Positions 8,786 to 44,375 of a stretch of DNA of 64,000 bases are shown here, in pieces. The notes under the pieces were generated by a model. It did not search any database, was not told where the DNA came from, and worked only from the letters and a program-made list of their open reading frames with translations. Numbering within the stretch: the first letter of the stretch is position 1; the number at the start of each line of letters is the position of its first letter. Made by a program: the position numbers and the translations under genes. The stretch is from a virus (lineage: Duplodnaviria > Heunggongvirae > Uroviricota > Caudoviricetes): IMG/VR virus record IMGVR_UViG_2925939204_000001, one strand, 5' to 3'.

Positions 8786-10925
8786 CCTTCGATATGGTTC
8801 AGTTTGCAGTGGAATTGAAGCCGCGAGCATTGCCTGGGAACCGTTGGGTATGCGTCCGGCGTGGTTTGCTGAAATTGAGCCTTTTCCATCTGCCGTTCTT
8901 GCGCACCGCTGGCCTCATATCGCCAACCTTGGCGATATGACAAAACTTGCCAAAAAAGTCCTGGCTGGGGAAATCGAATCCCCTGATGTGCTCGTCGGGG
9001 GAACACCTTGTCAGGCATTCAGTATCGCGGGATTACGTGGTGGGCTTGATGATGAGCGCGGCGCGCTAACTTTGAAGTATGTGGAGCTTGCAAATGCAAT
9101 TGACGACAAACGGTCTGAGTCCTTCCTCAAACCGACAGTTATCGTCTGGGAAAATGTCCCAGGAGTCCTGTCATCGGCAGATAACGCCTTCGGATGTTTC
9201 CTTGCCGGATTGGCTGGAGAAGATGCACCATTTGAACCAGGTGATCGACCTGAATCAGGAAAAAGTAACGCGTTCTGGCGGTGGGATGGCAAAACCGGTT
9301 GCCATGCTCCAAAGTGGCCGCAGTGTGGTTGTATTTATGGACCGCAGCGAAAGGTGGCCTGGAGAATACTTGATGCCCAATACTTCGGAGTGGCACAACG
9401 ACGCCGACGCGTGTTTGTTGTCGCAAGTGCTCGAACAGACCTCGATCCCGCAACGGTACTTTTTGAGTTCGAAGGCGTGCGCCGGGATATTGCGCCGAGC
9501 AGAGGCGAGGGGAAGGAAGTTGCCGGAAATGTTGGAAATGGCATTAAAAGCGGGAGCCATTGGGATAACCCTGTAAATCCTCACCCGACACTTGCCCGAT
9601 CGCACAATACCGGCGGGACGGGTGCAAGCAACCAGGAGATTTTTTCACAGCGCGGAAGTGGGCTTGTCGGTGCTTACCGGATGGTAGCATTTGGTGAGTA
9701 TGCGGATGATGAGGCGGCTTCCACGGTCAAGGCCAGAGATTTTAAGGATGCAACCGACCTGGCTGTTTTTGACAGTGCGAACGTCGGAGTGGCAGTACGT
9801 CGCTTAACGCCTGTCGAGTGCGAACGCCTGCAGGGCTTTCCTGACGGGCACACGTTGATCCCTACGGAAAAGCGTAAAAAAGTTTCTTCAGATGAACTGG
9901 CATACCTTCGCAATCACTATCCAGATTTAAGCGAAGAAGAGGCCGCGATGCTTGCAGCTGACGGACCGCGTTACAAAGCGATCGGCAACAGCATGGCAGT
10001 TCCTGTTATGCAATGGATAGGGTGTCGCATTCTTGCGACCGTAGCGGATAAACAGCAAAAAACAATAAATACCATTACCTACACAAGAAAACTCCGGACT
10101 CCGGATGAATATGAACGCCCAATATTCAAATGGGTAGGCGGTAAATTCTCAGAGTTGCCTACAGTGCTTGAGCATCTACCACACGGCAAGCGGTTAATAG
10201 AACCATTCGTTGGTGGCGGTTCCGTATTTACGAATGCAGGATTTCGCCACAACCTGCTTAATGATATTAACGGTGACCTGATTAACTTCTATCAGACATT
10301 GCAGCGAGAGGGACATTCGCTCGTCACGCTGGCATATAGTTTTTTCAAAAATTACAACAACGCTGACGCTTACCTCGAAGTGCGCGAGGCATTTAACAGA
10401 GGAAAGTATGACCAGCTACATCATGCTGCCGCCTTTTTGTACCTTAATCGGCACTGTTTTAATGGCGTAACGCGGTACAACCAAAATGGCGAGTTCAACG
10501 TGGGGTATGGCAAATACAAAGCGCCCTACTTCCCACATGCAGAGATGGAGGCATTTTTGGCTGATGACGTACTCAAAAACACGTCCTTTGTATCAGGTGA
10601 CTTTGCTGGCGTCATCGAGGCGGCTGGTGAAGGCGATGTGATTTTTTGCGATCCGCCGTATGAACCGCTGCCGGATACAGAAGGGTTTACCAGTTATTCA
10701 GGAAATAGCTTCCGTTTCGACGAACAGAAACGGCTGGTATCTCTATTGGTGGAAGCCCACCAGCGCGGCGCTAAGGTAGTGATAACAAATAGTGGTGCGC
10801 CAAACATCCGTGAACTATATGAACGAAACGGGTTTAAAGTACATCATATGGCAGCCAGACGGTCGGTGTCCTGCAAGGCGTCAACACGTGTAGTTGCTAA
10901 CGATATAATTGCAATAATGAAGTAA
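8697..10925 (+). CDS. dmt: bifunctional DNA methyltransferase: N-terminal C5-cytosine MTase fused to C-terminal Dam-like N6-adenine MTase (P1 Dmt-like)
   Basis: C5 motifs [23 protein letters not shown] (PCQ), VWENVPG (ENV); Dam-like KWVGGK and FCDPPYEP (DPPY). Start uncertain: in-frame GTG at 8769 or TTG 8763 more likely than 8697/8700, which overlap rdgC by ~86 nt. Confidence 0.85.
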
Positions 10926-17306: not shown

Positions 17307-17466
17307 TTACTCCCCTTGTTTAGTGCCAGAGGACACGCCAGTGCTGTTAAACAAGTATCCGACATACGCTGAACAGTTATTCAGCACGATCGACGAATGC
17401 AACCAACGAAACGCACTGAATAACCAAAGAAACAGGGAGATTTGGGAAGGGAAGGGGCGGCAGTGA
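17140..17466 (+). CDS. o-spanin-like (Rz1-like) lipoprotein, overlapping i-spanin in +1 frame
   Basis: Signal peptide with lipobox LSGC; gene starts inside and extends beyond the i-spanin gene. Confidence 0.5.
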   Translation: MKSLALKMRYAVLGLTMCVCLMTLSGCSGNGQKPSTSVPVKITVEATSKPQANLIDYSPCLVPEDTPVLLNKYPTYAEQLFSTIDECNQRNALNNQRNREIWEGKGRQ

Positions 17467-17493
17467 GCTTCACAAAATCTATATAGCTATTTT

Positions 17494-17505
17494 ATGTTAG
17501 AAAAA
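17494..17505 (+). promoter_or_regulatory. operator-like motif ATGTTAGAAAAA
   Basis: Member of dispersed TGTGTTAGAAAA family; ~55 bp upstream of the locus-A promoter. Confidence 0.4.
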
Positions 17506-17557
17506 TAATTTGAATTTTCGAACATAAACAATAAAATAAATCATCAAAAATTTGATG

Positions 17558-17586
17558 TTGATCTTCCATGTTTTCAGGCTTATATT
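17558..17586 (+). promoter_or_regulatory. sigma70-type promoter TTGATC-N17-TATATT of immunity locus A
   Basis: Near-consensus -35/-10 with 17-nt spacer; identical promoter at 51207-51235. Confidence 0.6.
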
Positions 17587-17592
17587 CACGCC

Positions 17593-17833
17593 GTTGCAGC
17601 AAATTCTGCGACCGGGTTTAGCAGCCTGAATGTACATGCGGACAACCGCAGATATCCGATATTGCGGTATTTTTGTGTCCGTAAAACCATGTTACGCCCG
17701 AATTATGGTGGGGCGTGATGGGGAGGCTTCGGCCTGCTGGTTTCATGTACGCCAGTCTGCTAACCCCGTCACGTCCTGCCACCCGTTTAGCAGCGGGTAG
17801 CAGGTTGTTAAACCTGTACATGAGGCCGTAACT
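17593..17833 (+). ncRNA. c4-like antisense RNA / leader region of immI-like locus A
   Basis: Sites a1/b1 (17617-17638), complementary b'/a' (17744-17763) and a2/b2 (17786-17822) overlapping the SD of the next ORF; all six sites co-vary in paralogue B. Confidence 0.5.
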
Positions 17834-18049
17834 ATGGTTAATGCCAATCCTTGCGCACGCCCGGAATTTATCTGGCGCTTTTATTCCTGCACAAAACACA
17901 CCTACATCAGCGTAATGGCAGCTACTGAGGCTGAAGCGCGTTCATTTCTTCCTACAGATCCATGCATTTTTGCCGCTCGCTTTAAACTCGATGCTCTGGA
18001 CGTTTTGACCTACTGGAACCGCCCAATGAACTGCGTGGAGGTGCATTAA
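17834..18049 (+). CDS. Icd-like small protein (71 aa)
   Basis: SD overlapped by b2 site; N-terminus MVNANPCARPEFIWRF conserved with paralogue at 51483; stop overlaps ant start. Confidence 0.5.
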   Translation: MVNANPCARPEFIWRFYSCTKHTYISVMAATEAEARSFLPTDPCIFAARFKLDALDVLTYWNRPMNCVEVH

Positions 18050-19047
18050 TGGACGCAGTAACTATCAATAACAAACCATTCCCGACTCTCGAATATAAAA
18101 ATCAGCGTGTAGTGACCTTTGAGATGATTGATGAGGTGCACGAACGTGTTGATGGGGCAGCCAGGGGAACATTTAAGCGAAACAGAAGTCGTTTCATTGA
18201 AGGGGTGGATACTTATGTTATTGATTATTCTGAAAAGGGCTTTTTAAGCCCATTTGGAATTGATGTCCCCCCGCGCGGTTTGCGCGTGTTCACTGAGTCC
18301 GGCTATCTGATGATTGTTAAGTCATTCAATGACGATCTGGCCTGGCAAGTGCAACGTGAGCTGGTAAACAGCTATTTTCGTATTAAGCAATTAATACCGG
18401 AGCACTCACCGCTAAAATCAAAAGCCGAAATCCTGGCCGAAATGGCGCAAATGCATCTTGAGCATGAACGCCGGATCAACGCCGTAAATGCCCAGGTAGC
18501 CGAGGTATCAGCACAAGTATCGATGGTCGCTGAAACACTCGAGCAAATCAAGAAAGGCAATATTCCGGAAGGCTACATTGGCTACCGCCAGCTGGCGGCG
18601 AAATGTGGCCTGACTGAAGCAAAATGTCGCAACCTGGTCAACGCTTACCGGATTCCCACCGATACGCATGAGTTTTTAACTCCCGATGGTTTGCTTGCGC
18701 GACGCTCCATTGTGGCCCTGGCCCCCTTCCGGAAAGCCTTTAAGCAGGTGATGTCGGAGGCAGAACCACGCAATAAACGCTGGTATCATCCAAAGATGGG
18801 GATGTTTCAGGCAATCCACCATCCTGTGCCTGAAAGCCCAAAGGATAATCTGTCACTACATACCGTCAGAGAGAAGATCAGGACTGGATACGCAACAGTG
18901 TGTCGTCGTTCTTCCTGGCCTGAAGGTATATGGGTGTGGCCCGAAGGTGGATCACGAAAGCACTGGCGCACTATCCGGGACGGGAAAATCCATGCTATTG
19001 ATTTAGCGCCAGAGGATATTGTTGCTACGGACTGGATTGTTAGTTAA
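18049..19047 (+). CDS. antirepressor (Ant)-like protein with C-terminal DUF2829-like segment (332 aa)
   Basis: N-terminal Bro-N/ORF6N-like region; central block KKGNIPEGYIGYRQLAAKCGLTEAKCRNLVNAYRIPTDTHEFLTP shared with 51707 paralogue; C-terminus ATVCRRSSW...LAPEDIVATDWIVS. Confidence 0.6.
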   Translation: MDAVTINNKPFPTLEYKNQRVVTFEMIDEVHERVDGAARGTFKRNRSRFIEGVDTYVIDYSEKGFLSPFGIDVPPRGLRVFTESGYLMIVKSFNDDLAWQVQRELVNSYFRIKQLIPEHSPLKSKAEILAEMAQMHLEHERRINAVNAQVAEVSAQVSMVAETLEQIKKGNIPEGYIGYRQLAAKCGLTEAKCRNLVNAYRIPTDTHEFLTPDGLLARRSIVALAPFRKAFKQVMSEAEPRNKRWYHPKMGMFQAIHHPVPESPKDNLSLHTVREKIRTGYATVCRRSSWPEGIWVWPEGGSRKHWRTIRDGKIHAIDLAPEDIVATDWIVS

Positions 19048-26039: not shown

Positions 26040-26747
26040 GTGAGTATTTTCAGCAGCGTTGGTAGAACGTTGACCACCGCATTGTCATTTAACACGAAAT
26101 CATTCACCAGCAACCTCATTAGCGACATTCTTGATAAAGCCATATCAGGCGGCGGGGTAAGCGGGAATTACAGTAGCGATATTGCCTACGGGAAAAATAT
26201 TGTTGCTGCCGCTATGCGTATCCGTTACGCCCAGGGGTGGCAGTGGACCGTTGAAGTGGATGGTCTGAACGGCTTCGATATGTTCGTGAAGGATATCACC
26301 TACAGCAGTGGGAACATCGAGACAGAAAGCAAGGTGATCGGCAGCGTAGAATTCAGCAAGCCAACCTATGTTAGCGCCGGACCGGTCACTATGACCGTGA
26401 GGGATACCGAAGATGGCAAGATCATGGACTGGTTCAAAGAGCGTCGTTCTCGTGTAACAAATCCTGATGGAACAATAAACCTTCCTCCGGAATATCTGAT
26501 GAAAATCCGTGTCTACCGGGTAACTCAGGACGGCGGAAAAGAACTGGAAGAAGAAATGCGCGTATTTCCTACTCAACTTGGGGAAATCACCCGCTCACGT
26601 GATCAGGTGTCAGAGTTCTTGTCATACCCAATCACTTTCCAGAAATACACATCCGCAGGCTCAGGTGTTTCTGCTTTGGTCAACGGTGCCGCTGGCATGG
26701 CTACAAGTGCGTTAAAGGGGGCTGTGAGTGGAGTGATCAAATTCTGA
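26040..26747 (+). CDS. hypothetical protein (235 aa)
   Basis: ORF in structural block. Confidence 0.5.
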   Translation: MSIFSSVGRTLTTALSFNTKSFTSNLISDILDKAISGGGVSGNYSSDIAYGKNIVAAAMRIRYAQGWQWTVEVDGLNGFDMFVKDITYSSGNIETESKVIGSVEFSKPTYVSAGPVTMTVRDTEDGKIMDWFKERRSRVTNPDGTINLPPEYLMKIRVYRVTQDGGKELEEEMRVFPTQLGEITRSRDQVSEFLSYPITFQKYTSAGSGVSALVNGAAGMATSALKGAVSGVIKF

Positions 26748-26836
26748 ATAGCTTTAATTATGTGTGCTGGAGGGTTGCTCATTTCCCGTCAGCACCCACG
26801 ACCTCAACGATAGCGGGTAGGGAAGGTAGCGCAATG

Positions 26837-27132
26837 TTGAGGGCATTTTTTACATCATCAATCCATCAGCAATGAAGGCATTCTTTACATATTTCAATAA
26901 TATCAATCAGTTAACACAGTGAATGATAATAAAAAAGCGCAATAAGAATGCACGATACGCACGATATTGGTTGAGGGCGATTTTTACATAATCCTTACAT
27001 ATCAATATGTTATATAAAAACACAACTTGCTAATAACGAGATACATGCAATTAAGATGTAAAAATTGCCCTCAATTGCCGATCGTTAAGGGCAAATTCTA
27101 CACCTTGAGAGGGGTGTAAAAATTGCCCTTAA
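26837..27132. repeat. incA-like iteron cluster downstream of repA (mixed orientation)
   Basis: TTGAGGGCATTTTTTACATC (26837), TTGAGGGCGATTTTTACATAATCC (26971), inverted copies at 27055 and 27112, partial at 27085. Confidence 0.7.
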
Positions 27133-27884
27133 GACTGCTGATAGGTAAATTTTATCCTGGTAACTTTGCCGCCTTCCGTCACCTCTGAGAAGACTATTTT
27201 CATTTTTGTATTTTTTTCAATCTCTGCTACAGCCTTCGTTAAAAAACTTCTCTTAAATTCGGCATACCGCTGATAGCTTTTTGGTAACCCATAACGCTCC
27301 CGCATCCATTCGACGCCAAGTATGGCAAAGCCGCTTCCATCATCCTTCCTGTACTGGCATAAGGACTCATAAAGCCGCATAGAATAAGGATTTGTAAGGC
27401 GAGATACTTCGGTAAAATTCAGCCTTGTGAATCTCTTATCAAGCAGAGTAAAAAACGGCATGAGATATGGATTAAGATGAATAATGTAAGTCCCGCGCCG
27501 TGGTGAATAGGCATCCTTAATCATCCAGGGATAAGACTCATAACTGTCTTCTGATTCGGTCGATTCATCAGGGTTATATATCGTAACTTTCTTCTCGCTA
27601 AGACCTGAAATGGCCTTACGAATATCCTTGCTGGCTTCAGCAGAGGGCAAATTATACATCTCTGCATATTCGTTGACCGTCAACTCACAGGCACCTGAAC
27701 CAAGAACGCCATCCTTAGAAGCATAGCGAAGTCTTCCCACCACAATAAACAACAGTCGCTTTTGGTCGCGAGTCAGGTGATAAGCAGCCTCCGTGATCTC
27801 ATTGGCTTGTGCCAGACTACGACTAATAGGTGTCGCTGACTCAATCAGGCTGACGGCTTTTGCTGTTAATTCCGCTCTGTTCAT
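27129..27884 (-). CDS. repA: iteron-binding plasmid replication initiator RepA
   Basis: Flanked on both sides by iteron arrays; start set at internal ATG (MNRAELTAK...) because the track start at 27917 would overlap the first origin iteron. Confidence 0.8.
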   Translation of the reverse strand: MNRAELTAKAVSLIESATPISRSLAQANEITEAAYHLTRDQKRLLFIVVGRLRYASKDGVLGSGACELTVNEYAEMYNLPSAEASKDIRKAISGLSEKKVTIYNPDESTESEDSYESYPWMIKDAYSPRRGTYIIHLNPYLMPFFTLLDKRFTRLNFTEVSRLTNPYSMRLYESLCQYRKDDGSGFAILGVEWMRERYGLPKSYQRYAEFKRSFLTKAVAEIEKNTKMKIVFSEVTEGGKVTRIKFTYQQS

Positions 27885-27906
27885 AACCCTGTGTGATCCT
27901 TCAAAT

Positions 27907-28026
27907 GGTGAGGGCAATTTTTACACCACTTTGAGGGCAATTACTACACCTTTTGAGGGCAAATCTTACACCTTCTGAGGGCAAATCTTACACCGATCGT
28001 ATTTAATTGAGGGCAAATCTTACACC
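27907..28026. repeat. origin iterons: five direct repeats of TGAGGGCAA(A/T)TCTTACACC at 22-23 bp spacing
   Basis: Copies start 27909, 27932, 27954, 27976, 28008; followed by A-tract repeats, DnaA-box-like CTGTGGATATG and inverted iteron at 28149-28167. Confidence 0.8.
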
Positions 28027-28213
28027 AGCCTCCTCTACAGCCCGCGCCACTACTGGCCCCAGCGACGCCTAAAAAGGATCTAAAAAGGATTAAAAATGGA
28101 AAAAGGTTTATAAAAATACTCTGTGGATATGTGAGTAGCGTCACTTAAGGTGTAAAAATCACCCTCAATAATCGCTTCTCGACCGGCAAAGATCTTCATT
28201 CAATCCCCATCGC

Positions 28214-28234
28214 AAATCACACACTCCCTATCCT
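28214..28234 (+). promoter_or_regulatory. late-promoter-like element AAATCACA-N7-TATCCT
   Basis: ~40 nt upstream of 28273 gene. Confidence 0.4.
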
Positions 28235-28272
28235 CTGGAAAATGAACAGATACCTGCTTTTCGGAGGAATAA

Positions 28273-29094
28273 TTGAACATTCCAAAATTCCCATTGCCTT
28301 CCCGTCCTGAGACAGAAATTCAGTTCCACGCCCCTACCGTGAAGGATGCGCTGAAATATTCTGACCTGAACCCGGCAGAAGATGAGGCAACGACTACAGA
28401 GTACCTTAACTCTATGCAGGATGGTGAAATTAACGACAGTGCTAACTGGACAGTTCAGGACCGCAGAACTGCTCTTTGGTGGATATTTGTTAATTCGCGC
28501 CCCGATGCAGTAATGACCTACTCCTATGAGTGCAGTCACTGCGGTAATACGCATCATGCAGATATTAACCTGAGCGACCTGGCCCAAACAGTAGAAATAC
28601 TCACTGTACCTCCTTACGTGAAAACCAACGTACCAGTAAATGGAGTACCAACTGACTGGATACTTAAACCATTAACCGGGAAAGGCGCGGAACTCCTTGA
28701 ACGAATGCGAGCGTCACTTCCTGATATGAAAACTCCCGAATACAGTGCTGGCGTAGCACGGATGCGAATTGCTGAACTCGCTTTATGCACGGCGCTTGAA
28801 GACGATCCGGAGGACTTCACGCAGGCCGCTAACCGACGCTTTGACATCATTGAAAGCATGGCGCTTGAAACCGAATTTACCCCGCTTGTGGCTCGCATAC
28901 AGCTTATGCAAAAAGACCTACGCCACGGCCTGAAAATGTCTATTGAGAGAGGCTCAAGCCGACTGATCCTGCCTCCGCAACATTGCAAAAACGCTAAGGA
29001 GGGTGCAGATGTGACAACCACACTGTACGTCCCCTTTCTCAATAGAGAGTTTATCCCATCAATTAGATCTGAATGGATGGCTAACCATTATTAA
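28273..29094 (+). CDS. hypothetical tail-module protein with CxHC zinc-ribbon-like motif (273 aa, TTG start)
   Basis: GGAGG SD; YECSHCGNTHH motif. Confidence 0.5.
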   Translation: MNIPKFPLPSRPETEIQFHAPTVKDALKYSDLNPAEDEATTTEYLNSMQDGEINDSANWTVQDRRTALWWIFVNSRPDAVMTYSYECSHCGNTHHADINLSDLAQTVEILTVPPYVKTNVPVNGVPTDWILKPLTGKGAELLERMRASLPDMKTPEYSAGVARMRIAELALCTALEDDPEDFTQAANRRFDIIESMALETEFTPLVARIQLMQKDLRHGLKMSIERGSSRLILPPQHCKNAKEGADVTTTLYVPFLNREFIPSIRSEWMANHY

Positions 29095-29148: not shown

Positions 29149-32100
29149 ATGGCGAGCACTCCATATGTCAAAAGCCCTGGAAGAAAAATACAAAGCTCAA
29201 GCCGGGAAACGTTGATCGCCGCTGGCAAAAGAGAGGTTATTTTGAAAGAGAATAAAGACCGTATCGCAATAATTGACGCTATTCAGGGGGCGAGCACAAA
29301 CGAACTTAACGCTCTTGCTGAGATCAAAGACGCCATTCTCTCTGGTAGAGGGTCTATAACTCAACTTGGTGAAAATCAAGGTAATGTAAGTCAAAGACTA
29401 TCCCGTAGACTCATAGCAAGCGAACCCTATGTCTCTGATGATGCCAAGAATACCCAAGCTAACCCATATATAAAACGCCTTCCGATGAAAAAAGGGAGGA
29501 CGCAGATCAACAACGGAGAAGAACGTCTCATTGTTGCAACCAACACATCAGAGCGCGTTCATTTTGCGTCATCACGCCAGTCAGCCCAAAAGTTGAAAGG
29601 TTCTGTGCCAGTAGCCGCTAATTCTGCTCCTCTTGAACCACAATCCCCCCAAAGCCAAAAAGGACCGCTTCGGGATAGTAACGGACGCTTTGTATCCCAG
29701 AAAAACAACGAAGATATAGCCAGAAAAAAAGAATGGCAGAAAGCACGTAAGGCTGACGCCAAACTACAAGAAGGCTTCCTCCGAAAATTAGGCTCCATTA
29801 TAGGGGTAGATGGCAATCAGTCTTCCAGTGAAGAGTCTTTAACAGATGCCGCAGGTGTTGGCGCTGGTGGTCCGTTGTGGATGGCTGCTCGCGGCATGTA
29901 CGACATTACTAAAGAGATCACAGGTAAAGCAGAATCTCTTAAAGAATGGGTAGAAAAGGGGAAAGGTGAGGCTTCACCTTCGAAAGCGACATCTCCAGCT
30001 ATCACTTATCCGGCGGTGGTGAACACTCAAAAAGCAACCTCTGCAACAGCATTTAATACTGCTGTTGAGACAAAATCAGCACAAGCAGTAGAAGAGCAAA
30101 CAAAAATTCTTCAGACCAATGACAACAAAATCATTGATGGTCTGGAAAATGTCTCCGACGAAGTAGTTAAGCTACGCAAATCAGTATCTTCTGGGGATAA
30201 GTTCGGCTTAAGTGATCTCTGGAAAAATCGAGCAAGCAGAAGAAATAAAATCAATATTGGCGATCAGGCTGGTAAAAATAAACGGAACAAACCGAAAAGG
30301 AAAGGTCGCAATCTGGGGAAAAAAGCCCTTTCTGTTGGTGAAAAAGCCGCTGCCGGAACCGCTGCTGCTGGAGCTGGTGCCGGAGCTGCAAAGGCTGTTA
30401 AAACAAAGGTTAGTAAAGCCAAAGACATCAGCACCACAAGCGACGCATCTAAGGGTATTGCTAAAGAAACAAAAAACACAACAAAGGCAGTTAAGCCAGC
30501 AGGTGTTGTTGCCGAAGAGGCCACAATTAAAACAGGTGAAACTGTTGCAAAGAAAAAAACCGAATCCTTAGCCCTCAAAAGTGCTGCAAAAATAGGTGTT
30601 AAATCAGCTGCTTCTACAGCTGCAAGAGCTATCCCGATCATCGGCTCGGTGGCTATGGCGGGATATGACGCTATAGATGGTTACACTGATACAGATGCGC
30701 AAAAGGCAGCCTTTGGATTAAGTGACGATGATGCTGTATCCGAACAGCAAAAAACGGCTTACGCAACAGCTAATGTGCTCGATATGGGGGGCTTGGTGTC
30801 GGGCGCAACTAACTTGATAGGGAAAGGAATTTCTGCGCTAGGATTTGAAAGAGCAGGTGAAAAACTTCAGGATTTTGATACCGGAGATATTGCTCGTGGT
30901 GTTAACGGCGCGGTAGATATCACCAAATCTGTTTTTGGTAGCCTTAAGGATACATTTTTATCCACTGACGAAAACACGAAACAAGTAAAAAAAGCTGTTG
31001 AAGACGGCACCAAAAAAACTGTCGATGCGATTCATTCTCTAGGTGAACAATTACAAGGTGGGCGTAATGGCGAGGATGGAGTTGGTGAGCACGGGTATAC
31101 TTCTCCAACTGAATTTAGTGCACCTGCCAACAACACCATTGCAGCGGATCTGAATATTGGTGGCAGCAACGCTAAAAACCGCAATTACCGAAATAATAAT
31201 CTCGGCAATCTTGTTTTTGCCAACCAGGAAGGGGCGATACTGGAATCGCCAAATGCAAAAGGTGAACAACGTTTTGCGCGATTTAACACACCTGAAGAAG
31301 GGATCAGGGCACTGGCAAACCAGGTTTCCAGCTATTACAACGGCACCAGTGCCGCAGCGGGATATCAGAAGTTGCAGACGGTATCCAGCATCATTTCAAA
31401 ATGGGCACCGCCAAATGAGAACAATACTAACCAATACATTGATAACGTCAGTAAATATCTTGGTGTATCGCCTAATGAAAAAATAGATGTCAGCAAACCA
31501 GAGGTTATGACGCAATTAGTTCGTGCAATTGCGACGAAAGAAGGCGGAAATCCGGCAGTTAATAATGAGTTCATTAAGAACGCACTTGGAGCATTTAACA
31601 CAAACACTGGTCGATGGGAGGGACAATTCTCTGACGAAACATTGGCGCGGATTAATAAAATTCAGAAAGAAAATGGTGGTCAGCTAATTGCCCGCGATTC
31701 GCAATATAGTGTTGGTCGTAAGGTAAAATATGCTAATGGAAAATCTCCAGCTCAACCAGTTTTGAATGCCGTTCCGACAGCAACACAACAGCCAATTGAG
31801 GTTGCACAACATGCCCAGGCAGTCAAAAAGCCACAAAAAACAGGCAACCAACCACAACCGATTAATCCAGAGAGCGCTGATGTTAATACCGGCTCTCCAT
31901 CGAGTTTGCTTGAGCGGTTAATCGCAATAAATGAAAGCGGAATCAGTGGTGCAAGTAATTTATTTGGCGGCGCGGCTACCAGCCTTGCTGGAACAAGTCT
32001 GGACCTGGTAAAGGATTTTGCGTTGGCTACTTCGTTTGGTTCTATATCTTCGCTTTCCGAAAAAGCGAAAGGAATGGATCAGGCTCTTACTGAAAAGATA

Positions 32101-33354
32101 TCCGGCTTAACCGGTAAATCTTTTGGATTTAAAAAAGCTTCTCAAGTGGCTGATATCGCAACAGCCATACAACAAAAACGCACTGTTAATCACGATACAG
32201 AAATCATTGATCTACTTCCGGGAGATCAAGTATCCCCTTTTACTCCGAAAACCCCACAGCAGGAGCAGGCTCTAGCAATCAGCCAGGCTATGGAGGGCTT
32301 TTCGTCTGCAGCGCCAGCACCGAAAACCCCACAGCAGGAGCAGGCTCTAGCAATCAGCCAGGCTATGGAGGGCTTTTCATCTGCAGCGCCAGCACCGAAA
32401 ACCCCACAGCAGGAGCAGGCTCTAGCAATCAGCCAGGCTATGGCGGGCTTTTCATCTGCAGCACCAGCACCGAAAACCCCACAGCAGGAGCAGGCTCTAG
32501 CAATCAACCAGGCTATGGCGGGCTTTTCGTCTGCAGCGCCAGCACCGAAAACCCCACAGCAGGAGCAGGCTCTAGCAATCAGCCAGGCTATGGCGGGCTT
32601 TTCATCTGCAGCACCAGCACCGAAAACCCCACAGCAGGAGCAGGCTCTAGCAATCAACCAGGCTATGGCGGGAGCTGCGCCAGTAGTTACCTCTGGAAAA
32701 CGAACTGTCACGGCACCAAGTGATGTGCAGATTTATGACAACGGCTACAAGGTGGTTACAGGTGAGGATAAGAGCTTCTTTGGTTCGCTATTTGATTCCA
32801 CGGTGTCAGGGCTTAAACAGGCAGGGACCGCAGTAATTCCTGCCGTTGGCGATAACCTTTCACGACTTGTTGGGGGGATTGATAGTACAGGGATATTGAA
32901 CGATCTTGTAATGCAGTCTACTGGGCAGAATAGTGCGATTGCGCGAGCTATTAGCCCATTAACAAGAAATGTTGGAGACTGGCTGAATGGAGGGATTCAA
33001 CAAACCGCTAATAGCATTAGGGGAATAGCAACTGGTGCCAATAACGCCATATTTGGCTCTGCTTCAGCTGTGCAAGAACCTTTTCTTGCTATGCCGCCAC
33101 AACTCCCTACTGTAACCGATCTCGCACGAAGCGGAATAAGACAACCATTAACTACTGACACTATAAATAACGATCCTGCTATGTTGAAGGCGCTGGATAA
33201 CATCTGCTCTATCCTGAACGATCTGCTGAATGTGAACAAGAACAATACAAAAGGCGATCCGGATAATGTTGTCAAAACATCGCAGCCGCAGCCGCGACCA
33301 CGTGCGAGCACAACTATTAATGACCAGTCGCTGGATGCTCTGCTTGAGGATTAA
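29149..33354 (+). CDS. tape-measure-like / injection protein with putative cell-wall-hydrolase domain (1401 aa; P1 Sit-like)
   Basis: Very long Ala/Lys-rich helical protein; central domain (NLGNLVFANQEG...EEGIRALANQV...KWAPPNENNT) looks glycosidase/transglycosylase-like; six tandem 25-aa repeats. Confidence 0.6.
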   Translation: MASTPYVKSPGRKIQSSSRETLIAAGKREVILKENKDRIAIIDAIQGASTNELNALAEIKDAILSGRGSITQLGENQGNVSQRLSRRLIASEPYVSDDAKNTQANPYIKRLPMKKGRTQINNGEERLIVATNTSERVHFASSRQSAQKLKGSVPVAANSAPLEPQSPQSQKGPLRDSNGRFVSQKNNEDIARKKEWQKARKADAKLQEGFLRKLGSIIGVDGNQSSSEESLTDAAGVGAGGPLWMAARGMYDITKEITGKAESLKEWVEKGKGEASPSKATSPAITYPAVVNTQKATSATAFNTAVETKSAQAVEEQTKILQTNDNKIIDGLENVSDEVVKLRKSVSSGDKFGLSDLWKNRASRRNKINIGDQAGKNKRNKPKRKGRNLGKKALSVGEKAAAGTAAAGAGAGAAKAVKTKVSKAKDISTTSDASKGIAKETKNTTKAVKPAGVVAEEATIKTGETVAKKKTESLALKSAAKIGVKSAASTAARAIPIIGSVAMAGYDAIDGYTDTDAQKAAFGLSDDDAVSEQQKTAYATANVLDMGGLVSGATNLIGKGISALGFERAGEKLQDFDTGDIARGVNGAVDITKSVFGSLKDTFLSTDENTKQVKKAVEDGTKKTVDAIHSLGEQLQGGRNGEDGVGEHGYTSPTEFSAPANNTIAADLNIGGSNAKNRNYRNNNLGNLVFANQEGAILESPNAKGEQRFARFNTPEEGIRALANQVSSYYNGTSAAAGYQKLQTVSSIISKWAPPNENNTNQYIDNVSKYLGVSPNEKIDVSKPEVMTQLVRAIATKEGGNPAVNNEFIKNALGAFNTNTGRWEGQFSDETLARINKIQKENGGQLIARDSQYSVGRKVKYANGKSPAQPVLNAVPTATQQPIEVAQHAQAVKKPQKTGNQPQPINPESADVNTGSPSSLLERLIAINESGISGASNLFGGAATSLAGTSLDLVKDFALATSFGSISSLSEKAKGMDQALTEKISGLTGKSFGFKKASQVADIATAIQQKRTVNHDTEIIDLLPGDQVSPFTPKTPQQEQALAISQAMEGFSSAAPAPKTPQQEQALAISQAMEGFSSAAPAPKTPQQEQALAISQAMAGFSSAAPAPKTPQQEQALAINQAMAGFSSAAPAPKTPQQEQALAISQAMAGFSSAAPAPKTPQQEQALAINQAMAGAAPVVTSGKRTVTAPSDVQIYDNGYKVVTGEDKSFFGSLFDSTVSGLKQAGTAVIPAVGDNLSRLVGGIDSTGILNDLVMQSTGQNSAIARAISPLTRNVGDWLNGGIQQTANSIRGIATGANNAIFGSASAVQEPFLAMPPQLPTVTDLARSGIRQPLTTDTINNDPAMLKALDNICSILNDLLNVNKNNTKGDPDNVVKTSQPQPRPRASTTINDQSLDALLED
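32245..32690 (+). repeat. six tandem 75-bp in-frame repeats (PKTPQQEQALAISQAMEGFSSAAPA)
   Basis: Units start 32245, 32320, 32395, 32470, 32545, 32620; minor variants ME/MA and IS/IN. Confidence 0.85.
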
Positions 33355-36555: not shown

Positions 36556-39542
36556 TTATGAATGCTGATAAAACGAACAACATAATGACACTATCCTCTG
36601 GTGTCTCACAGCCGTTGCTTGCTGATGTTCAATATTTCGAACTCTATAGTAGTCTGGCTCTTAACAGAAAACTAAAAAATATTGTTTTGCCTGGCTTTTA
36701 CTGTGGATTTGAACCGGTTCCCGGCACAGGGTTGAGTGTCCGTATAACTTCTGAAAACTCAGAAGGTAAAGGGGCTGCTTCAGTAGATGTAAATAATGTT
36801 CAGATATCCGTTCAGCAAATAGAAGATGTGACTGTCTCGGTAAAGGCAGGGGCTACCAACATTATTGTGCTGGAAGCCAATTTTGAACATGGTGTAAAAA
36901 CGACACAGGTAGATAGCGCATCTTTTGTCAGTGCTGCAAGAATTTACGCGCGTACGGACAATACTATTGGGCAGAATCAAATTGAATTATGTCGAGTTAT
37001 CGTGCCTAGCGGCGCAACGGCTGTGACTAAAGAAATGATTGTGCTTAAATACCGGGTTAACCGTGCTGTTGGTGTCGAATTCTCTAATGAAATAAGCAGT
37101 ACAGAAGAAAGAAAAGCGGCTACACCTCTGGCTGTCAAAACTCTCCATGATTTGGTTGATACAAAAGCCCCGATCAACAGCCCGAATCTGACAGGAACGC
37201 CAACAACACCAACAGCGACACAGGGGACTAATAATACCCAGATCGCAAGCACGGCTTTCGTTATGGCCGCGATTGCCGCACTTGTAGATTCGTCACCTGA
37301 TGCACTTAACACTCTGAACGAACTGGCCGCCGCGCTTGGTAATGATCCGAACTTTTCCGCGACAGTGACTCGCCTGATTGGGGAAAAAGTTGCCAAAGAT
37401 GGCGACACCATGGAAGGTAAACTTAATCTGCCGCAGACCTCTGCATTCGGCATCAATACCGACAACAGACTGGGGGGGAACTCTCTGACGCTGGGCGATC
37501 ACGATACCGGAATTAAACAGGAAGGAGACGGCGTATTGTCCGTGTTCGCCAACGGCCAGCGTGTGTTCCTTTTCACGGAAAGAAGTATTACCTCATTAAA
37601 AGAGCTTCTGATAGGTGATGCACGTTATAGCACCGGTGGTGATGTGTATGGCAGTCAGTGGGGAGACGGTTGGTTGAGTTCCTGGTTAAGTGCCCGCTTT
37701 GCAGAGTGTGCCAACGCCAGCCATAACCACCCTTGGAGCCAGATTACCGACGTACCAGCAGCCAGCCTCACTCAGAGCGGCATTGTACAACTTAGTAGTG
37801 CCACCAACAGCACTTCTGAAACATTAGCTGCAACGCCAAAAGCGGTTAAAGCTGCATACGATCTAGCAGCCGGAAAGGCACCATCCAGTCATACACATCC
37901 CTGGAATCAGATCACCGGTGTGCCAACAGCTTCATTGACAGCGAAAGGCATCACTCAGCTCAGTAGTGCCACTAACAGCACGTCCGAAGTGCTGGCCGCC
38001 ACACCGAAAGCTGTCAAGGCCGCATATGACCTGGCTAACGGGAAGTATACGGCCCAGGATGCAACCACGACACAAAAAGGGATAGTTCAGCTCAGTAGCG
38101 ACACCAACAGCACTTCTGAAACATTAGCTGCAACGCCAAAAGCGGTTAAAGCTGCATACGATCTAGCAGCCGGAAAGGCACCATCCAGTCATACACATCC
38201 CTGGAATCAGATCACCGGTGTGCCAACAGCTTCATTGACAGCGAAAGGCATCACTCAGCTCAGTAGTGCCACTAACAGCACGTCCGAAGTGCTGGCCGCC
38301 ACACCGAAAGCTGTCAAGGCCGCATATGACCTGGCTAACGGGAAGTATACGGCCCAGGATGCAACCACGACACAAAAAGGGATAGTTCAGCTCAGTAGCG
38401 ACACCAACAGCACTTCTGAAACATTAGCTGCAACGCCAAAAGCGGTTAAAGCTGCATACGATCTAGCAGCCGGAAAGGCACCATCCAGTCATACACATCC
38501 CTGGAATCAGATCACTAGTGTGCCAACAGCTTCATTGACAGCGAAAGGCATCACTCAGCTCAGTAGCGACACCAACAGCACGTCCGAAGTGCTGGCCGCC
38601 ACACCGAAAGCTGTCAAGGCCGCATATGACCTGGCTAACGGGAAGTATACGGCCCAGGATGCAACCACGACACAAAAAGGGATAGTTCAGCTCAGTAGCG
38701 ACACCAACAGCACTTCTGAAACATTAGCTGCAACGCCAAAAGCGGTTAAAGCTGCATACGATCTAGCAGCCGGAAAGGCACCATCCAGTCATACACATCC
38801 CTGGAATCAGATCACTAGTGTGCCAACAGCTTCATTGACAGCGAAAGGCATCACTCAGCTCAGTAGCGACACCAACAGCACGTCCGAAGTGCTGGCCGCC
38901 ACACCGAAAGCTGTCAAGGCTGCATATGATTTGGCTAATGGAAAGCAAGCGGCAGACACTACGCTCACTGCTCTAGCGGCACTAGCTACAGCAGCAGATA
39001 AACTCCCTTATTTCACAGGGGTTGATCGTGCCGCGTTAACTGCATTGACAAGTGTTGGACGCGCCATTCTTGGTAAGACCAGTATTCAGAGCGTTCTTGA
39101 TTACCTTCAATTGGGAGAAGCGGCAAAAAGGGGCGTGGGCACCGGTAGCAATCAACTCCCTGACATGTCCGCATTTGGTATGTCGCGAAACGGACAAACT
39201 GCCTGGGATATTCTCCCAAATGGTATGATTCGACAGGCTGGCACTGTGACACTGACACCAGTTGGTAACTTCAACGCGCAGGTGCTTGGTGGGGTGACGT
39301 ACTACACCCATTACTACAGGATTAATTTCCCCAGACAATTCCCAAATGCACAAATAGCAACGCTGGCTACACTAGCGAGTTACGCCTATTCGAACCAGGC
39401 AACAATGGCTGGAAAATCACTGGCAACGCATCGCGATACTGATTCTGGCACTGACGTATCAAGAACGCGATTCACTGTGGCGTATACGACACCCAATCTC
39501 GGCGAAATACCGACAGTGCATTTTGAATCAATAGGGTACTAA
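36552..39542 (+). CDS. tail fibre protein (996 aa)
   Basis: Eight copies of the ~50-aa phage tail-fibre repeat (QLSS.TNSTSE.LAATPKAVKAAYDLA.GK) flanked by HTHPWNQIT segments. Confidence 0.8.
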   Translation: MIMNADKTNNIMTLSSGVSQPLLADVQYFELYSSLALNRKLKNIVLPGFYCGFEPVPGTGLSVRITSENSEGKGAASVDVNNVQISVQQIEDVTVSVKAGATNIIVLEANFEHGVKTTQVDSASFVSAARIYARTDNTIGQNQIELCRVIVPSGATAVTKEMIVLKYRVNRAVGVEFSNEISSTEERKAATPLAVKTLHDLVDTKAPINSPNLTGTPTTPTATQGTNNTQIASTAFVMAAIAALVDSSPDALNTLNELAAALGNDPNFSATVTRLIGEKVAKDGDTMEGKLNLPQTSAFGINTDNRLGGNSLTLGDHDTGIKQEGDGVLSVFANGQRVFLFTERSITSLKELLIGDARYSTGGDVYGSQWGDGWLSSWLSARFAECANASHNHPWSQITDVPAASLTQSGIVQLSSATNSTSETLAATPKAVKAAYDLAAGKAPSSHTHPWNQITGVPTASLTAKGITQLSSATNSTSEVLAATPKAVKAAYDLANGKYTAQDATTTQKGIVQLSSDTNSTSETLAATPKAVKAAYDLAAGKAPSSHTHPWNQITGVPTASLTAKGITQLSSATNSTSEVLAATPKAVKAAYDLANGKYTAQDATTTQKGIVQLSSDTNSTSETLAATPKAVKAAYDLAAGKAPSSHTHPWNQITSVPTASLTAKGITQLSSDTNSTSEVLAATPKAVKAAYDLANGKYTAQDATTTQKGIVQLSSDTNSTSETLAATPKAVKAAYDLAAGKAPSSHTHPWNQITSVPTASLTAKGITQLSSDTNSTSEVLAATPKAVKAAYDLANGKQAADTTLTALAALATAADKLPYFTGVDRAALTALTSVGRAILGKTSIQSVLDYLQLGEAAKRGVGTGSNQLPDMSAFGMSRNGQTAWDILPNGMIRQAGTVTLTPVGNFNAQVLGGVTYYTHYYRINFPRQFPNAQIATLATLASYAYSNQATMAGKSLATHRDTDSGTDVSRTRFTVAYTTPNLGEIPTVHFESIGY
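37725..38945 (+). repeat. tandem 300-bp (100-aa) repeats, about four near-identical units
   Basis: Lines at 37801, 38101, 38401, 38701 are near-identical; each unit has two related ~150-bp half-units. Confidence 0.85.
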
Positions 39543-39544
39543 AT

Positions 39545-39778
39545 ATGGAGAATATCTATTTCAGCCCAACGACCGTTGGTTTTTATGTTTCTGAACAAGA
39601 GCGACCTGATGATGCGGTTGAAGTCTCGCCAGAGGTGGAGGCATTTTTGAGGGAGTGTGTTATCTGGGGAGCGGATACATTTAACGTAGAGCGAGATGCA
39701 GCAACGGTGACATATCCAACAGAACTGCTTGAATATGTCACCACCTACAACGCCCCCGTTAAATATCCTGCGGATTGA
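39545..39778 (+). CDS. tail fibre assembly (Tfa)-like N-terminal domain protein (77 aa)
   Basis: N-terminus [18 protein letters not shown] matches Tfa pattern; lacks conserved Tfa C-terminus. Confidence 0.45.
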
Positions 39779-40169
39779 CAGGCCATACGGGTTTTGCTGT
39801 ATCAACGCGCATCAGCAAGACCCGGTATTTTTTCCATTCAGATAACGCGGCGGTTTCTTCTGCCGTCGCGATTTCCGCATCAAAAGCATCCTGTCTCTAG
39901 GCTATTTCCTTATCAGCCATAGAACGCAATACCGTTCTTTTCTGTTCAGCCTGAATAATCTGTTGTTCAGCGGAGAGTGGCGGGATATCAATCCACGCAG
40001 GATTACCATTTTTATCAGCCCCCAGCGTTTTGCCTTGTGGCGCTACGCCTGTGTAAATTGCCATTGTTTCATCATCAACATCAACGCCATTTTCAGGCCA
40101 TGAACCGGCGCTGATATATACCTCTTTTAGTGCTTTCGGATAGAAAGAGCCTTTATAAAATTTATTCAT
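39744..40169 (-). pseudogene. tail fibre assembly (Tfa/U-like) gene interrupted by in-frame amber codon
   Basis: MNKFYKGSFYP...AWIDIPP...RSMADKEIA, then TAG at 39897-39899, then in-frame [39 protein letters not shown] (conserved Tfa C-terminus). Confidence 0.5.
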
Positions 40170-40643
40170 TCTTAATACCCCAGCGCGATAAAACAACAAT
40201 CTTTGGTGCCCTCTCCGGATGGCGACCAGTTCTGAATACTGATATGCGTTCTGCTGGCAATACGCACATTCATCGCGGCATTGTAGCCAGATGTTCCACG
40301 GTTTCCGGTCGCAAATAAGCCTGCATAGGGAAAAGCAAATGGTAAGCCGCTCTAACTGCTATACGACCAAGGCTTCATCTCTGGAAAACATACGCAGAAC
40401 CTTTTTTAACCCTTGGCGTTTAGCCTTTTTGCCACTCGCTTTGCCCTCAAAAATTAGCTCACATCCTGCGCTTTCAAGGGGGCGTTGCAAAGCGGTGTTT
40501 TGGTCATTTGTTGATATGCGAATGTATCTAATAAGCATATGTCTCCCCTTGTATGTTAAGGAAGGAGATTTTAGAAGATGTCCTGTAAGGAAATAACAAA
40601 CTGACTAAGGTAGTGGCGCATTAGATGTTATTTCTGGAGGGGT

Positions 40644-44330: not shown

Positions 44331-44375
44331 TCCAAAGGGGCTGAAATACCCCTTTCACTTATCCAGTGCGCCATA

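What the first reader, a model, noticed from the sequence alone, without database searches (positions are those of the whole stretch)
26837..28167. Iteron replicon with origin and copy-control iteron arrays flanking repA
Five direct iterons upstream of repA (27909-28026, 22-23 bp phasing) plus inverted and direct copies downstream (26837-27132) and one further inverted copy at 28149-28167. AT-rich stretches, A-tract repeats (AAAAAGGA x3) and a DnaA-box-like TGTGGATAT lie nearby. The layout parallels the oriR/incC plus incA organisation of P1 and RepFIB-type replicons, but the RepA sequence and iteron do not look like P1's as I recall, suggesting a module swap.
Basis: partly seen in the sequence, partly recalled or inferred. 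Interest (0 to 1): 0.45.

Follow-up and report, generated by a model that had tools for sequence, protein, structure and literature searches.

The report
F-like iteron replicon of D6 phage-plasmid
This is the plasmid-maintenance replication origin of a D6-type phage-plasmid, already annotated in public records; it is related to the F plasmid's RepE/ori2 module, not to phage P1's, and leftover P1-type repeats beside it show it displaced a P1-type module.

Summary
The 19-bp repeat TGAGGGCAAATYTTACACC occurs 11 times (up to 3 mismatches), all within 26838-28167, against 0.04 expected in 64 kb. The copies flank a 251-aa Rep_3 initiator gene (27884-27129, minus strand).

The window is a D6-like phage-plasmid, 100% identical to E. 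coli plasmid CP020051 and 98.7% to phage D6. D6 orf42 is already annotated as a replication initiator, and a 2019 paper notes iterons next to this gene.

RepA has no significant similarity to P1 RepA (E = 0.057). It is about 46-50% identical to F RepE, and the origin lines up with F ori2: DnaA box, phased A-tracts, GC spacer, iterons, rep, control iterons.

It differs from F in four ways:
- no operator inverted repeat
- an extra inverted iteron beyond the DnaA box
- two IHF-like sites in the control array
- partition genes about 11 kb away

New points from this work:
- The 1.5-kb module interrupts the tub-pmgB junction, which is 14 bp in P1.
- Some D6-like plasmids carry a P1-type replicon in the same slot. 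One or two P1-type iterons (26759-26800) remain here as a scar, so a module swap did occur.
- An iteron-like site inside repA appears constrained at the DNA level.

This is an ordinary, known kind of replicon.

The parts
26759..26777 (+). P1 (IncY)-type RepA iteron, TATGTGTGCTGGAGGGTTG. It is a scar of a displaced P1-type replicon cassette, not a site for the resident RepA.
   Evidence: The 15-nt core ATGTGTGCTGGAGGG is identical to P1 incC/incA iterons read from the P1 annotation. The same left junction is shared with the P1-type cassette of NZ_CP066033.
26782..26800 (-). Degenerate inverted partner of the P1-type iteron (reverse complement CGTGGGTGCTGACGGGAAA).
   Evidence: My reading gives 16/19 to a composite P1 iteron. 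The pair is intact in variant L006 (18/18 and 21/22 nt to P1 iterons, 23-nt spacer) and deleted in L005 and L007.
26838..26856 (+). Downstream (control-array) iteron d1, in the same orientation as the origin iterons.
   Evidence: It is conserved in place in divergent variants while the flanks diverge.
26873..26891 (+). Weak iteron-like copy d2 (TGAAGGCATTCTTTACATA).
   Evidence: Repeat family D3/D5; conserved island. It is more than 5 mismatches from the consensus, so this is the least certain copy.
26901..26913 (+). IHF core consensus match TATCAATCAGTTA (WATCAANNNNTTR).
   Evidence: The core is kept in all four divergent variants. There are only 7 such matches in 64 kb.
26972..26990 (+). Downstream iteron d3.
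27000..27012 (+). Second IHF core consensus match, TATCAATATGTTA.
   Evidence: Two or more cores in this 381-bp spacer arose in 20 of 20000 shuffles. The site is conserved in 3 of 4 variants and has one mismatch in L006.
27055..27073 (-). Downstream iteron d4, inverted relative to the origin iterons (the orientation seen in F incC).
27086..27104 (+). Downstream iteron d5. With d6 it forms a 46-bp near-palindrome.
   Evidence: (I9).
27113..27131 (-). Downstream iteron d6, inverted, overlapping the repA stop codon.
27129..27884 (-). repA: a 251-aa Rep_3 (WH1+WH2) initiator that is a homologue of F RepE.
   Evidence: Pfam. PDB RepE 1REP/2Z9O at E about 1e-73. Best NCBIfam model is RepE, scoring 280.6 bits against a cutoff of 342. 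It is 46% identical to F RepE and 60-62% to the Erwinia and Pantoea Rep proteins. Across variants it is 98.4-99.6% identical in amino acids at 90.5-94.3% nucleotide identity.
27642..27660 (+). Intragenic iteron-like site (GATGTATAATTTGCCCTCT on the coding strand), in the same orientation as the origin iterons.
   Evidence: It coincides with the longest exact nucleotide match (20 and 23 nt) between this repA and the 60%-identical Erwinia and Pantoea genes, where the overall identical-codon fraction is 0.39-0.41. F repE has no equivalent.
27909..28026 (+). Origin array of five direct 19-bp iterons (spacing 23, 22, 22, 32 bp), ending 25 nt from the repA ATG.
   Evidence: The array is invariant in divergent variants except for 3 single-base changes. 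The only promoter candidate is an extended -10, TGTAAAAAT, at 27925-27917 inside iteron 1 (inference).
28027..28069 (.). GC-rich spacer between the iterons and the AT-rich region.
   Evidence: 65% GC in the 28010-28069 window. A counterpart exists in F, Erwinia and Pantoea. It is partly variable among variants.
28070..28121 (.). AT-rich region with phased A5 tracts and one GATC; candidate DNA-unwinding element.
   Evidence: 23% GC. Nearly invariant among variants. Homologous to the phased T/A tracts of F ori2 and the Erwinia and Pantoea origins.
28122..28130 (-). DnaA-box-like ATATCCACA (one mismatch).
   Evidence: Positional homologue of the F ori2 TTATCCAC box. Invariant among variants. By frequency alone it is at chance level.
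28149..28167 (-). Outlying inverted iteron beyond the DnaA box.
   Evidence: Invariant in variants. Absent at this position in F, Erwinia and Pantoea.
28214..28235 (+). Conserved block AAATCACACACTCCCTATCCTC, probably a D6-type late promoter for pmgB-sit. It marks the right-hand boundary of the replicon cassette and is not part of the replicon.
   Evidence: It is invariant while its flanks vary. It is also shared with the P1-type-cassette plasmid. Six further instances of the motif lie upstream of late genes in the correct orientation.

Best explanation
Window 26.8-28.2 kb is the low-copy plasmid-maintenance replicon of a D6-like, P1-related phage-plasmid. It is an iteron replicon of the F RepE/ori2 type.

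Proposed mechanism (inferred by homology, not shown here):
1. RepA monomers (winged-helix WH1 + WH2) bind the five phased iterons at 27909-28026.
2. Together with host DnaA at 28122-28130, they open the adjacent A-tract AT-rich region (28070-28121) so the host helicase can load.
3. The six downstream copies (26838-27131), the inverted outlier (28149-28167) and probably the intragenic copy (27642-27660) bind further RepA. They hold copy number down by titrating RepA and by pairing with ('handcuffing') the origin. Two conserved IHF-like sites (26901, 27000) would bend the control array.
4. Only 25 nt separate iteron 1 from the ATG and there is no F-type operator. The repA promoter must therefore overlap the iterons, so that iteron-bound RepA represses its own gene, as in P1.

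Shown here: the 1.5-kb cassette lies antisense inside the late tail operon, between tub and pmgB. It replaced a P1-type (IncY-like) cassette at that slot and left one or two P1-type iterons behind.
For: - The iteron set is far above chance and confined to this locus.
- RepA has Rep3_N and Rep3_C domains. It matches RepE crystal-structure sequences at E about 1e-73 over residues 21-249, and its best NCBIfam model is RepE.
- The origin is collinear with F ori2 and with the origins of 60-63%-identical Rep genes in Erwinia and Pantoea plasmids: TTATCCAC box, phased A/T tracts, GC spacer, five iterons at 22 bp, rep, downstream iterons.
- The iteron shares its 3' half, TTGCCCTCA, with the F iteron.
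- Phylogenetic footprint: in variants 84-90% identical over the module, every iteron, the A-tract/DnaA-box block and both IHF cores stay in place while the intervening spacers drop to roughly 50% identity.
- RepA is under strong purifying selection: 98.4-99.6% amino-acid identity at 90.5-94.3% nucleotide identity.
- It is the only plasmid-type replicon typed or annotated in these elements.
- The module occurs in 87 of 5426 complete E. coli genomes, always on plasmids and never on a chromosome.
- Swap evidence: P1 tub and pmgB are 14 bp apart. NZ_CP066033 has a P1-type replicon in the same slot. The junction alignments confirm the shared boundaries.
Against: - There is no experimental evidence here for autonomous replication, RepA binding or copy control.
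- No sigma-70 promoter for repA passes the consensus scan. My extended -10 candidate is weak.
- The DnaA box has one mismatch and is statistically unremarkable on its own.
- The downstream array has mixed orientations, unlike the uniformly inverted arrays of F and the Erwinia and Pantoea relatives, so its exact role could differ.
- RepA scores below the RepE equivalog cutoff (280.6 against 342 bits), so details of F RepE biology (dimer-operator repression, chaperone dependence) may not transfer.
Confidence: 0.88

Rival explanations
1. The downstream array (26838-27131) is not mainly a copy-control (incA/incC-like) element. It could instead be a second origin or an architectural element organised by IHF, in the way R6K has several origins served by one initiator.
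For: - The array is AT-rich (27-38% GC).
- It holds two conserved IHF cores that the F, Erwinia and Pantoea relatives lack.
- Its iterons form convergent and divergent pairs bracketing AT-rich spacers, unlike the uniform inverted arrays of the relatives.
Against: - There is no DnaA-box-like site or phased A-tract block comparable to 28070-28130.
- The spacers between iterons are poorly conserved, whereas the true origin's AT-rich block is nearly invariant.
- The position right after the rep stop codon is that of F incC and P1 incA.
Confidence: 0.07
2. The RepE-like module is a decaying passenger. Plasmid maintenance of the element depends on another function elsewhere, for example repL or an unrecognised replicon.
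For: The module was acquired horizontally into a late operon. No experiment in hand shows that it works.
Against: - RepA is intact and under strong purifying selection.
- All binding sites are conserved across variants.
- D6 annotation lists only this gene and the lytic repL.
- MOB-suite types only rep_cluster_1704 in the 100%-identical plasmid.
- Sister elements have a different complete replicon in the same slot rather than none.
Confidence: 0.03
3. The P1-type iteron pair at 26759-26800 is not a neutral scar. It is kept either as a decoy that binds P1-type RepA (incompatibility against IncY relatives) or as a transcript hairpin ending the tub operon.
For: The pair is almost perfect in L006, where it forms a strong hairpin (z = -4.67). 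It lies exactly at the end of tub.
Against: - In the window the pair is internally deleted and its fold is no better than shuffles (z = 0.57).
- It is absent altogether from L005 and L007, which is the pattern expected of decay.
- P1 and D6 elements are reported to co-occur in some isolates (bioRxiv 10.1101/2025.09.12.675607).
Confidence: 0.15

Closest known systems
F plasmid ori2 (oriS) / RepE replicon (RepFIA), with incB origin iterons and incC control iterons
   Same: - RepA aligns to RepE over residues 21-249, at 46-50% identity and E about 1e-73.
- The order of elements is the same: DnaA box, phased A/T tracts, GC spacer, 19-bp iterons at about 22 bp, rep, iterons starting at the stop codon.
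- The iteron 3' half, TTGCCCTCA, is identical.
   Different: - RepA scores below the RepE equivalog cutoff (280.6 against 342 bits).
- There are five rather than four origin iterons, and the 5' half of the iteron differs (GGTGTAAG against TGTGACAA).
- There is no inverted-repeat operator between the iterons and the ATG (25 nt against about 95 nt).
- There is one DnaA box rather than two.
- An extra inverted iteron lies beyond the DnaA box.
- The downstream array has mixed orientation and two IHF-like sites.
- An intragenic iteron is present.
- There is no adjacent sopABC; the partition genes are about 11 kb away.
Rep genes of Pantoea sp. App145 plasmid pAPP145_3 and an Erwinia aeris contig (uncharacterised RepE-like replicons)
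   Same: - Rep identity is 60-63%.
- The iteron family is the same, (G/A)TGTAnnAnTTGCCCTCA, matching at 15 of 19 positions.
- There are five origin iterons at 22 bp, only about 30 nt lie between the last iteron and the start codon, and the origins use phased T/A tracts.
- The intragenic iteron is the same to the nucleotide.
   Different: - Those origins keep two DnaA boxes (TTCCACTTATCCAC).
- Their downstream arrays are long (7 to at least 15 copies), uniformly inverted and lack IHF cores.
- They are carried on large plasmids, not inside a phage tail operon.
P1 plasmid replicon (IncY): oriR/incC - repA - incA
   Same: - The overall logic is the same: DnaA box, AT-rich region, five origin iterons overlapping the rep promoter region, rep, and a control array with copies in both orientations (P1 annotation).
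- The host element is a P1 relative.
- A P1-type cassette occupies the same slot in sister D6-like plasmids.
   Different: - RepA is not detectably similar (E = 0.057).
- The iteron is unrelated (7/19).
- The AT-rich region has one GATC rather than five GATC heptamers.
- The replicon is located between tub and pmgB, not between gene 23 and upfA beside parAB.

Membership tests
Rep_3 iteron-initiator replicons (Pfam PF01051/PF21205) | Initiator with WH1 (Rep3_N) and WH2 (Rep3_C) domains | tested here: met
   Rep3_N 2.9e-29 (102.7 bits, cutoff 22.4) and Rep3_C 9e-16 (58.3 bits, cutoff 21.1).
Rep_3 iteron-initiator replicons (Pfam PF01051/PF21205) | Directly repeated 17-22-bp iterons next to the rep gene, with helical phasing | tested here: met
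   Five 19-mers spaced 23, 22, 22 and 32 bp. There are 11 copies in all against 0.04 expected.
Rep_3 iteron-initiator replicons (Pfam PF01051/PF21205) | The cloned region replicates autonomously and depends on Rep | not testable with these tools
   Indirect support only: the module is always on plasmids in 87 complete E. coli genomes, and it is the only typed replicon.
F RepE / ori2 (RepFIA) | Protein reaches the NCBIfam RepE equivalog model NF010305 cutoff | tested here: not met
   280.6 bits against a cutoff of 342. F RepE itself scores 537.8.
F RepE / ori2 (RepFIA) | ori2 order: DnaA box(es), AT-rich region, iterons, rep, control iterons | tested here: met
   Read side by side.
F RepE / ori2 (RepFIA) | Inverted-repeat operator sharing a half-site with the iteron, lying between the iterons and rep, for repression by dimers | tested here: not met
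   Only 25 nt (CCATTTGAAGGATCACACAGGGTT) lie between iteron 1 and the ATG, and there is no inverted repeat. In F the operator is at L004 1403-1433.
F RepE / ori2 (RepFIA) | Iteron TGTGACAAATTGCCCTCA (determines IncFIA specificity) | tested here: not met
   11/19 ungapped identity. The 3' half is identical but the 5' half differs. Cross-incompatibility with F was not tested.
F RepE / ori2 (RepFIA) | Adjacent sopABC partition operon | tested here: not met
   The neighbours are tub and pmgB. The D6 partition genes lie at D6 57.1-59.7 kb against repA at 45.8 kb.
P1 RepA / IncY replicon | RepA homologous to P1 RepA | tested here: not met
   BLASTP E = 0.057, with no meaningful alignment. P1 RepA itself only weakly matches Rep3_N (1.6e-05).
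P1 RepA / IncY replicon | Arrays of GATGTGTGCTGGAGGGAAA-type iterons | tested here: not met
   The resident iteron matches at 7/19. Only a 1-2-copy scar of P1-type iterons remains at 26759-26800.
P1 RepA / IncY replicon | Five GATC-containing heptamer repeats in the origin's AT-rich region | tested here: not met
   There is a single GATC (28077-28080) in the AT-rich block. The P1-type cassette in L019 does have four to five GGATCTA repeats.
RepFIB-type replicon | RepA homologous to the RepFIB initiator, with its iterons | not tested
   No RepFIB reference was fetched. Below F RepE, the next tblastn tier in plasmids is 30-35% identity to unnamed 'replication initiation protein' genes.

The most novel reading that the evidence does not exclude
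The tub|pmgB junction of D6-like phage-plasmids is a replicon-exchange slot. At this slot an F-RepE-like cassette, whose closest relatives are on Erwiniaceae plasmids, displaced an IncY P1-type cassette. This RepE-like subfamily also has regulatory features not described for F or P1: an intragenic iteron kept at the DNA level, an iteron-embedded promoter in place of a dimer operator, an IHF-bent control array of mixed orientation, and antisense embedding in a late operon that could silence plasmid replication during lytic growth.
Probability: 0.3. Interest if true: 0.4.

Novelty: already known. Interest (0 to 1): 0.25.

Why it matters
D6-like phage-plasmids occur in about 1.6% of complete E. 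coli genomes and in invasive Salmonella lineages (PMC6799933). Their replicon is reported to be missing from PlasmidFinder-type typing schemes (bioRxiv 10.1101/2025.09.12.675607).

Three practical consequences follow:
- Knowing that the replicon is F-RepE-like rather than P1-like helps with replicon typing.
- Knowing that a minority of D6-like elements carry an IncY-like cassette in the same slot helps predict which phage-plasmids can co-reside.
- The mapped elements define a minimal region for building mini-replicons.

Biologically this is one more case of replicon swapping to escape incompatibility, already described for the IncY and p0111 types in P1 itself. It is not a new kind of system.

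Tried and rejected
- **DnaA-box statistics.** One-mismatch matches are at chance frequency (131 against 133.5). The call therefore rests on positional homology and conservation, not frequency.
- **Promoter and terminator scan of 26600-28400.** No repA promoter was found. The few terminator-like hits are not conserved.
- **Rfam scan of the region at E <= 1.** Nothing was found, so there is no known antisense-RNA control element.
- **Hairpin after tub as a terminator.** In the window it folds no better than shuffles (z = 0.57). It was reinterpreted as a convergent pair of P1-type iterons.
- **The 36-kb record NZ_CP027382 as a natural mini-replicon.** It is an incomplete linear fragment of a D6-like element.
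- **F-type operator search.** The inverted iteron pairs present (27086/27113, 27055/27086, 28008/28149) differ from the F operator in polarity or spacing, and none lies between the iterons and the ATG.
- **The D6 genome paper (Gilcrease and Casjens 2018, PMC5800970).** It is not held, so I cannot say how much of the fine structure it already describes.
- **Literature search for intragenic iterons.** It returned only irrelevant papers.
- **p0111.** I first suspected the D6 replicon was the PlasmidFinder 'p0111' type. The papers show p0111 is the alternative replicon of P1-group elements, not D6's.
Full report
**What the window is**

The 1.6 kb around the finding is 100% identical to E. coli plasmid NZ_CP020051 (91 kb, non-mobilizable, MOB-suite rep_cluster_1704). 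It is 98.7% identical to Escherichia phage D6.

In the D6 record the gene is orf42, annotated 'replication initiation protein ... similar to P1 gene repA? ... pfam01051'. It lies between the homologues of the P1 tail genes tub and pmgB, on the opposite strand.

About 119 PLSDB plasmids carry the module. It is in 87 of 5426 complete E. coli genomes, and all 100 places are on plasmids, none on a chromosome. [quoted passage not shown] The object is therefore known and annotated, although I found no experimental study. The D6 genome paper itself was not available.

**Checking the observation**

The 19-mer TGAGGGCAAATYTTACACC has 11 matches at up to 3 mismatches, all between 26838 and 28167, against 0.04 expected. 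At up to 5 mismatches only one more hit appears in the other 62 kb.

- Five direct copies lie upstream of repA at 27909, 27932, 27954, 27976 and 28008. Their spacing is 23, 22, 22 and 32 bp.
- Six copies lie downstream: 26838, 26873 (weak), 26972 and 27086 in the same orientation, and 27055 and 27113 inverted. The last overlaps the stop codon.
- One inverted copy lies beyond the origin at 28149-28167.
- GC falls to 23% at 28070-28129, where A5 tracts recur every 8-12 bp.
- The DnaA-box-like ATATCCACA (28122-28130, minus strand) has one mismatch. On frequency alone it is at chance level (131 matches against 133.5 expected).

**What the protein is**

RepA (27884-27129, 251 aa) has Rep3_N and Rep3_C domains. 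Against solved structures it matches F-plasmid RepE (1REP, 2Z9O and others) at E about 1e-73 over residues 21-249. tblastn against plasmids shows a gap between the D6-like proteins (at least 95% identity) and the next tier, which is RepE of IncFIA plasmids at about 50%.

Its best NCBIfam model is the RepE equivalog. The score is 280.6 bits, below the cutoff of 342. RepA is thus a RepE-like sister lineage, not RepE itself.

Against P1 RepA there is no significant similarity (E = 0.057). The iteron matches P1 iterons at only 7 of 19 positions, against 11 of 19 for F and 15 of 19 for the Erwinia relative.

**What the origin is**

I read F ori2 from an IncFIA plasmid (L004). I also read the origins next to two Rep genes that are 60-63% identical to this RepA, one in Pantoea plasmid pAPP145_3 and one in an Erwinia aeris contig.

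Written in the rep direction, all four run: (T)TATCCAC box(es), phased A/T tracts, a GC-rich spacer of about 40 bp, 19-bp iterons at about 22 bp ending in TTGCCCTCA, rep, and further iterons starting at the stop codon.

The D6-like ATATCCACA occupies the place of the second F DnaA box. That position, plus its invariance among variants, is what makes it credible.

Differences from F:
- five iterons rather than four
- a different 5' iteron half (GGTGTAAG against TGTGACAA)
- one DnaA box rather than two
- an extra inverted iteron beyond the DnaA box
- no inverted-repeat operator

On the last point, F has about 95 bp with the operator between the last iteron and the ATG. The D6-like, Erwinia and Pantoea origins have only 25-45 nt there. 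The repA promoter must therefore overlap the iterons, as in P1. The consensus scan finds no promoter. The only candidate I can offer is an extended -10, TGTAAAAAT, inside iteron 1, and this is an inference.

**Evidence that the sites are functional**

Four D6-like variants are only 84-90% identical over the module but have RepA 98.4-99.6% identical (L005-L008). This pattern of high amino-acid identity at lower nucleotide identity indicates strong purifying selection on the protein.

In the alignment, every iteron keeps its position and orientation. The block from the A-tracts through the DnaA box to the outlying iteron (28070-28167) is almost invariant. The spacers between the downstream iterons fall to roughly half identity.

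Two islands in those spacers are also conserved. Both are perfect matches to the IHF core WATCAANNNNTTR, at 26901-26913 and 27000-27012, and each lies about 10 bp past an iteron copy. There are only 7 such matches in the whole window, and two or more in this 381-bp region arose in 20 of 20000 shuffles. The F, Erwinia and Pantoea loci have none.

The intragenic site (GAGATGTATAATTTGCCCTC on the coding strand) is the longest exact nucleotide match between this repA and the Erwinia and Pantoea genes (20 and 23 nt). Only 39-41% of codons for conserved residues are otherwise identical. A run of five identical degenerate codons at a pre-specified place has a probability of about 0.01. This suggests selection on the DNA itself. 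F repE has no such site.

**The module swap**

In P1, tub and pmgB are 14 bp apart inside the operon driven by the late promoter LPsit. The plasmid replicon lies elsewhere, next to parAB. In D6-likes, 1.5 kb separates tub and pmgB, and the partition genes lie about 11 kb away. This unlinking was already noted for the 'P1-g2' group (PMC7969092).

While extracting P1 iterons for comparison, I saw that window 26759-26777, TATGTGTGCTGGAGGGTTG, carries the exact 15-nt core of the P1 iteron. A degenerate inverted partner lies at 26782-26800.

- In variant L006 the pair is intact: 18/18 and 21/22 nt to P1 iterons, with a 23-nt spacer, resembling P1 incA copies 7 and 6.
- In L005 and L007 the pair is deleted.

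Searching with the L006 pair led to nine D6-like plasmids, among them NZ_CP066033, a listed P1-g2 member. In these the same tub|pmgB slot holds a complete P1-type replicon:
- RepA of 286 aa, 84% identical to P1 RepA
- incA-like iterons next to tub
- five incC-like iterons, GATC repeats and TGTGGATAA next to pmgB

The left junction (...GCTTTAATTATGTGTGCTG) is shared by both cassette types. On the right, homology resumes at a conserved block just upstream of pmgB.

The RepE-like cassette therefore replaced most of a P1-type cassette and left one or two incA-type iterons behind. It parallels the IncY/p0111 alternation reported at one position in P1-group elements (PMC7969092; PMC9603915). It also fits the report that P1 and D6 elements can co-reside.

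**How it most likely works**

Shown:
- the parts list
- homology to RepE and ori2
- conservation of the sites
- exclusively plasmid location

Inferred from established knowledge of F RepE/ori2 and P1 oriR (my own knowledge, not tested here):
- RepA monomers bound to the phased iterons, together with DnaA, open the AT-rich region for helicase loading.
- The extra iterons titrate RepA and pair with the origin to limit copy number.
- RepA bound to iterons 1 and 2 represses repA.

More speculative:
- IHF bends the control array.
- The intragenic site takes part in pairing or acts as a roadblock.
- Late transcription coming from tub runs antisense into repA during lytic growth.

**Verdict**

This is a real, functional-looking and well-conserved iteron replicon. 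It is already present and annotated in public records and belongs to a thoroughly understood kind. The added value is the correct family assignment (F RepE-like), the fine map, and direct sequence evidence for the replicon swap.

Noticed in passing
window 28214-28235; also 4569(+), 36050(+), 45711(+), 47159(+), 53164(-), 53209(+): A recurring motif, AAATCACAnACT-N4-5-TAnnnT, looks like a D6-type late (Lpa-dependent) promoter. Mapped onto D6, the instances lie directly upstream and in the right orientation of pmgB, gene 7, R, ddrB, prt, the orf16 lysozyme and darB. Some of these are positions where P1 has annotated late promoters (AAGTGACTT-N4-TAnnAT). The pmgB copy restarts the late operon after the inserted replicon and is also kept in plasmids with the P1-type cassette.
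   Followed up: partly
They are intact in an E. fergusonii variant, partly deleted here and absent in others. Nine D6-like plasmids carry a full P1-type replicon in the same slot.
   Followed up: yes
window 32245-32672 (inside the sit / tape-measure-like gene, 29149-33354): There are 5.7 tandem copies of a 75-bp (25-aa) unit, KTPQQEQALAISQAM(A/E)GFSSAAPAP. The protein is 1401 aa here against about 1260 aa in D6, and the megablast synteny with D6 breaks at 32138-32839.
   Followed up: no
window 37794-38945: There are 3.8 tandem copies of a 300-bp unit at 98% identity, in the region corresponding to the tail-fibre gene S. I first saw it as TCATACACA recurring every 300 bp in the DnaA-box scan.
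   Followed up: no
window about 8785-10095, 17457-18413, 37248-40344, 44363-45699: These segments have no megablast match to phage D6, or a rearranged one; 18413-19077 matches a distant D6 position. They are mosaic differences between this element and D6.
   Followed up: no
L013 (CALWLV010000256.1, a MAG labelled 'uncultured Roseburia sp.'): An 11-kb contig in a Roseburia metagenome bin encodes a RepA 100% identical to this one. It is almost certainly an enterobacterial D6-like phage-plasmid contig placed in the wrong bin.
   Followed up: no
L009 (NZ_MK356557.1, pSa1423-90k): In this record several iterons read GGGGGG or TTGGGG where all other variants have TGAGGG, and repA is not annotated. 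This looks like sequencing or assembly error rather than biology.
   Followed up: no
window about 14.0-16.6 kb (D6 57140-59656): Two different partition-type gene pairs lie side by side, one ParM/StbA-like plus partner and one ParA-like plus partner. They are about 11 kb from the replicon.
   Followed up: no
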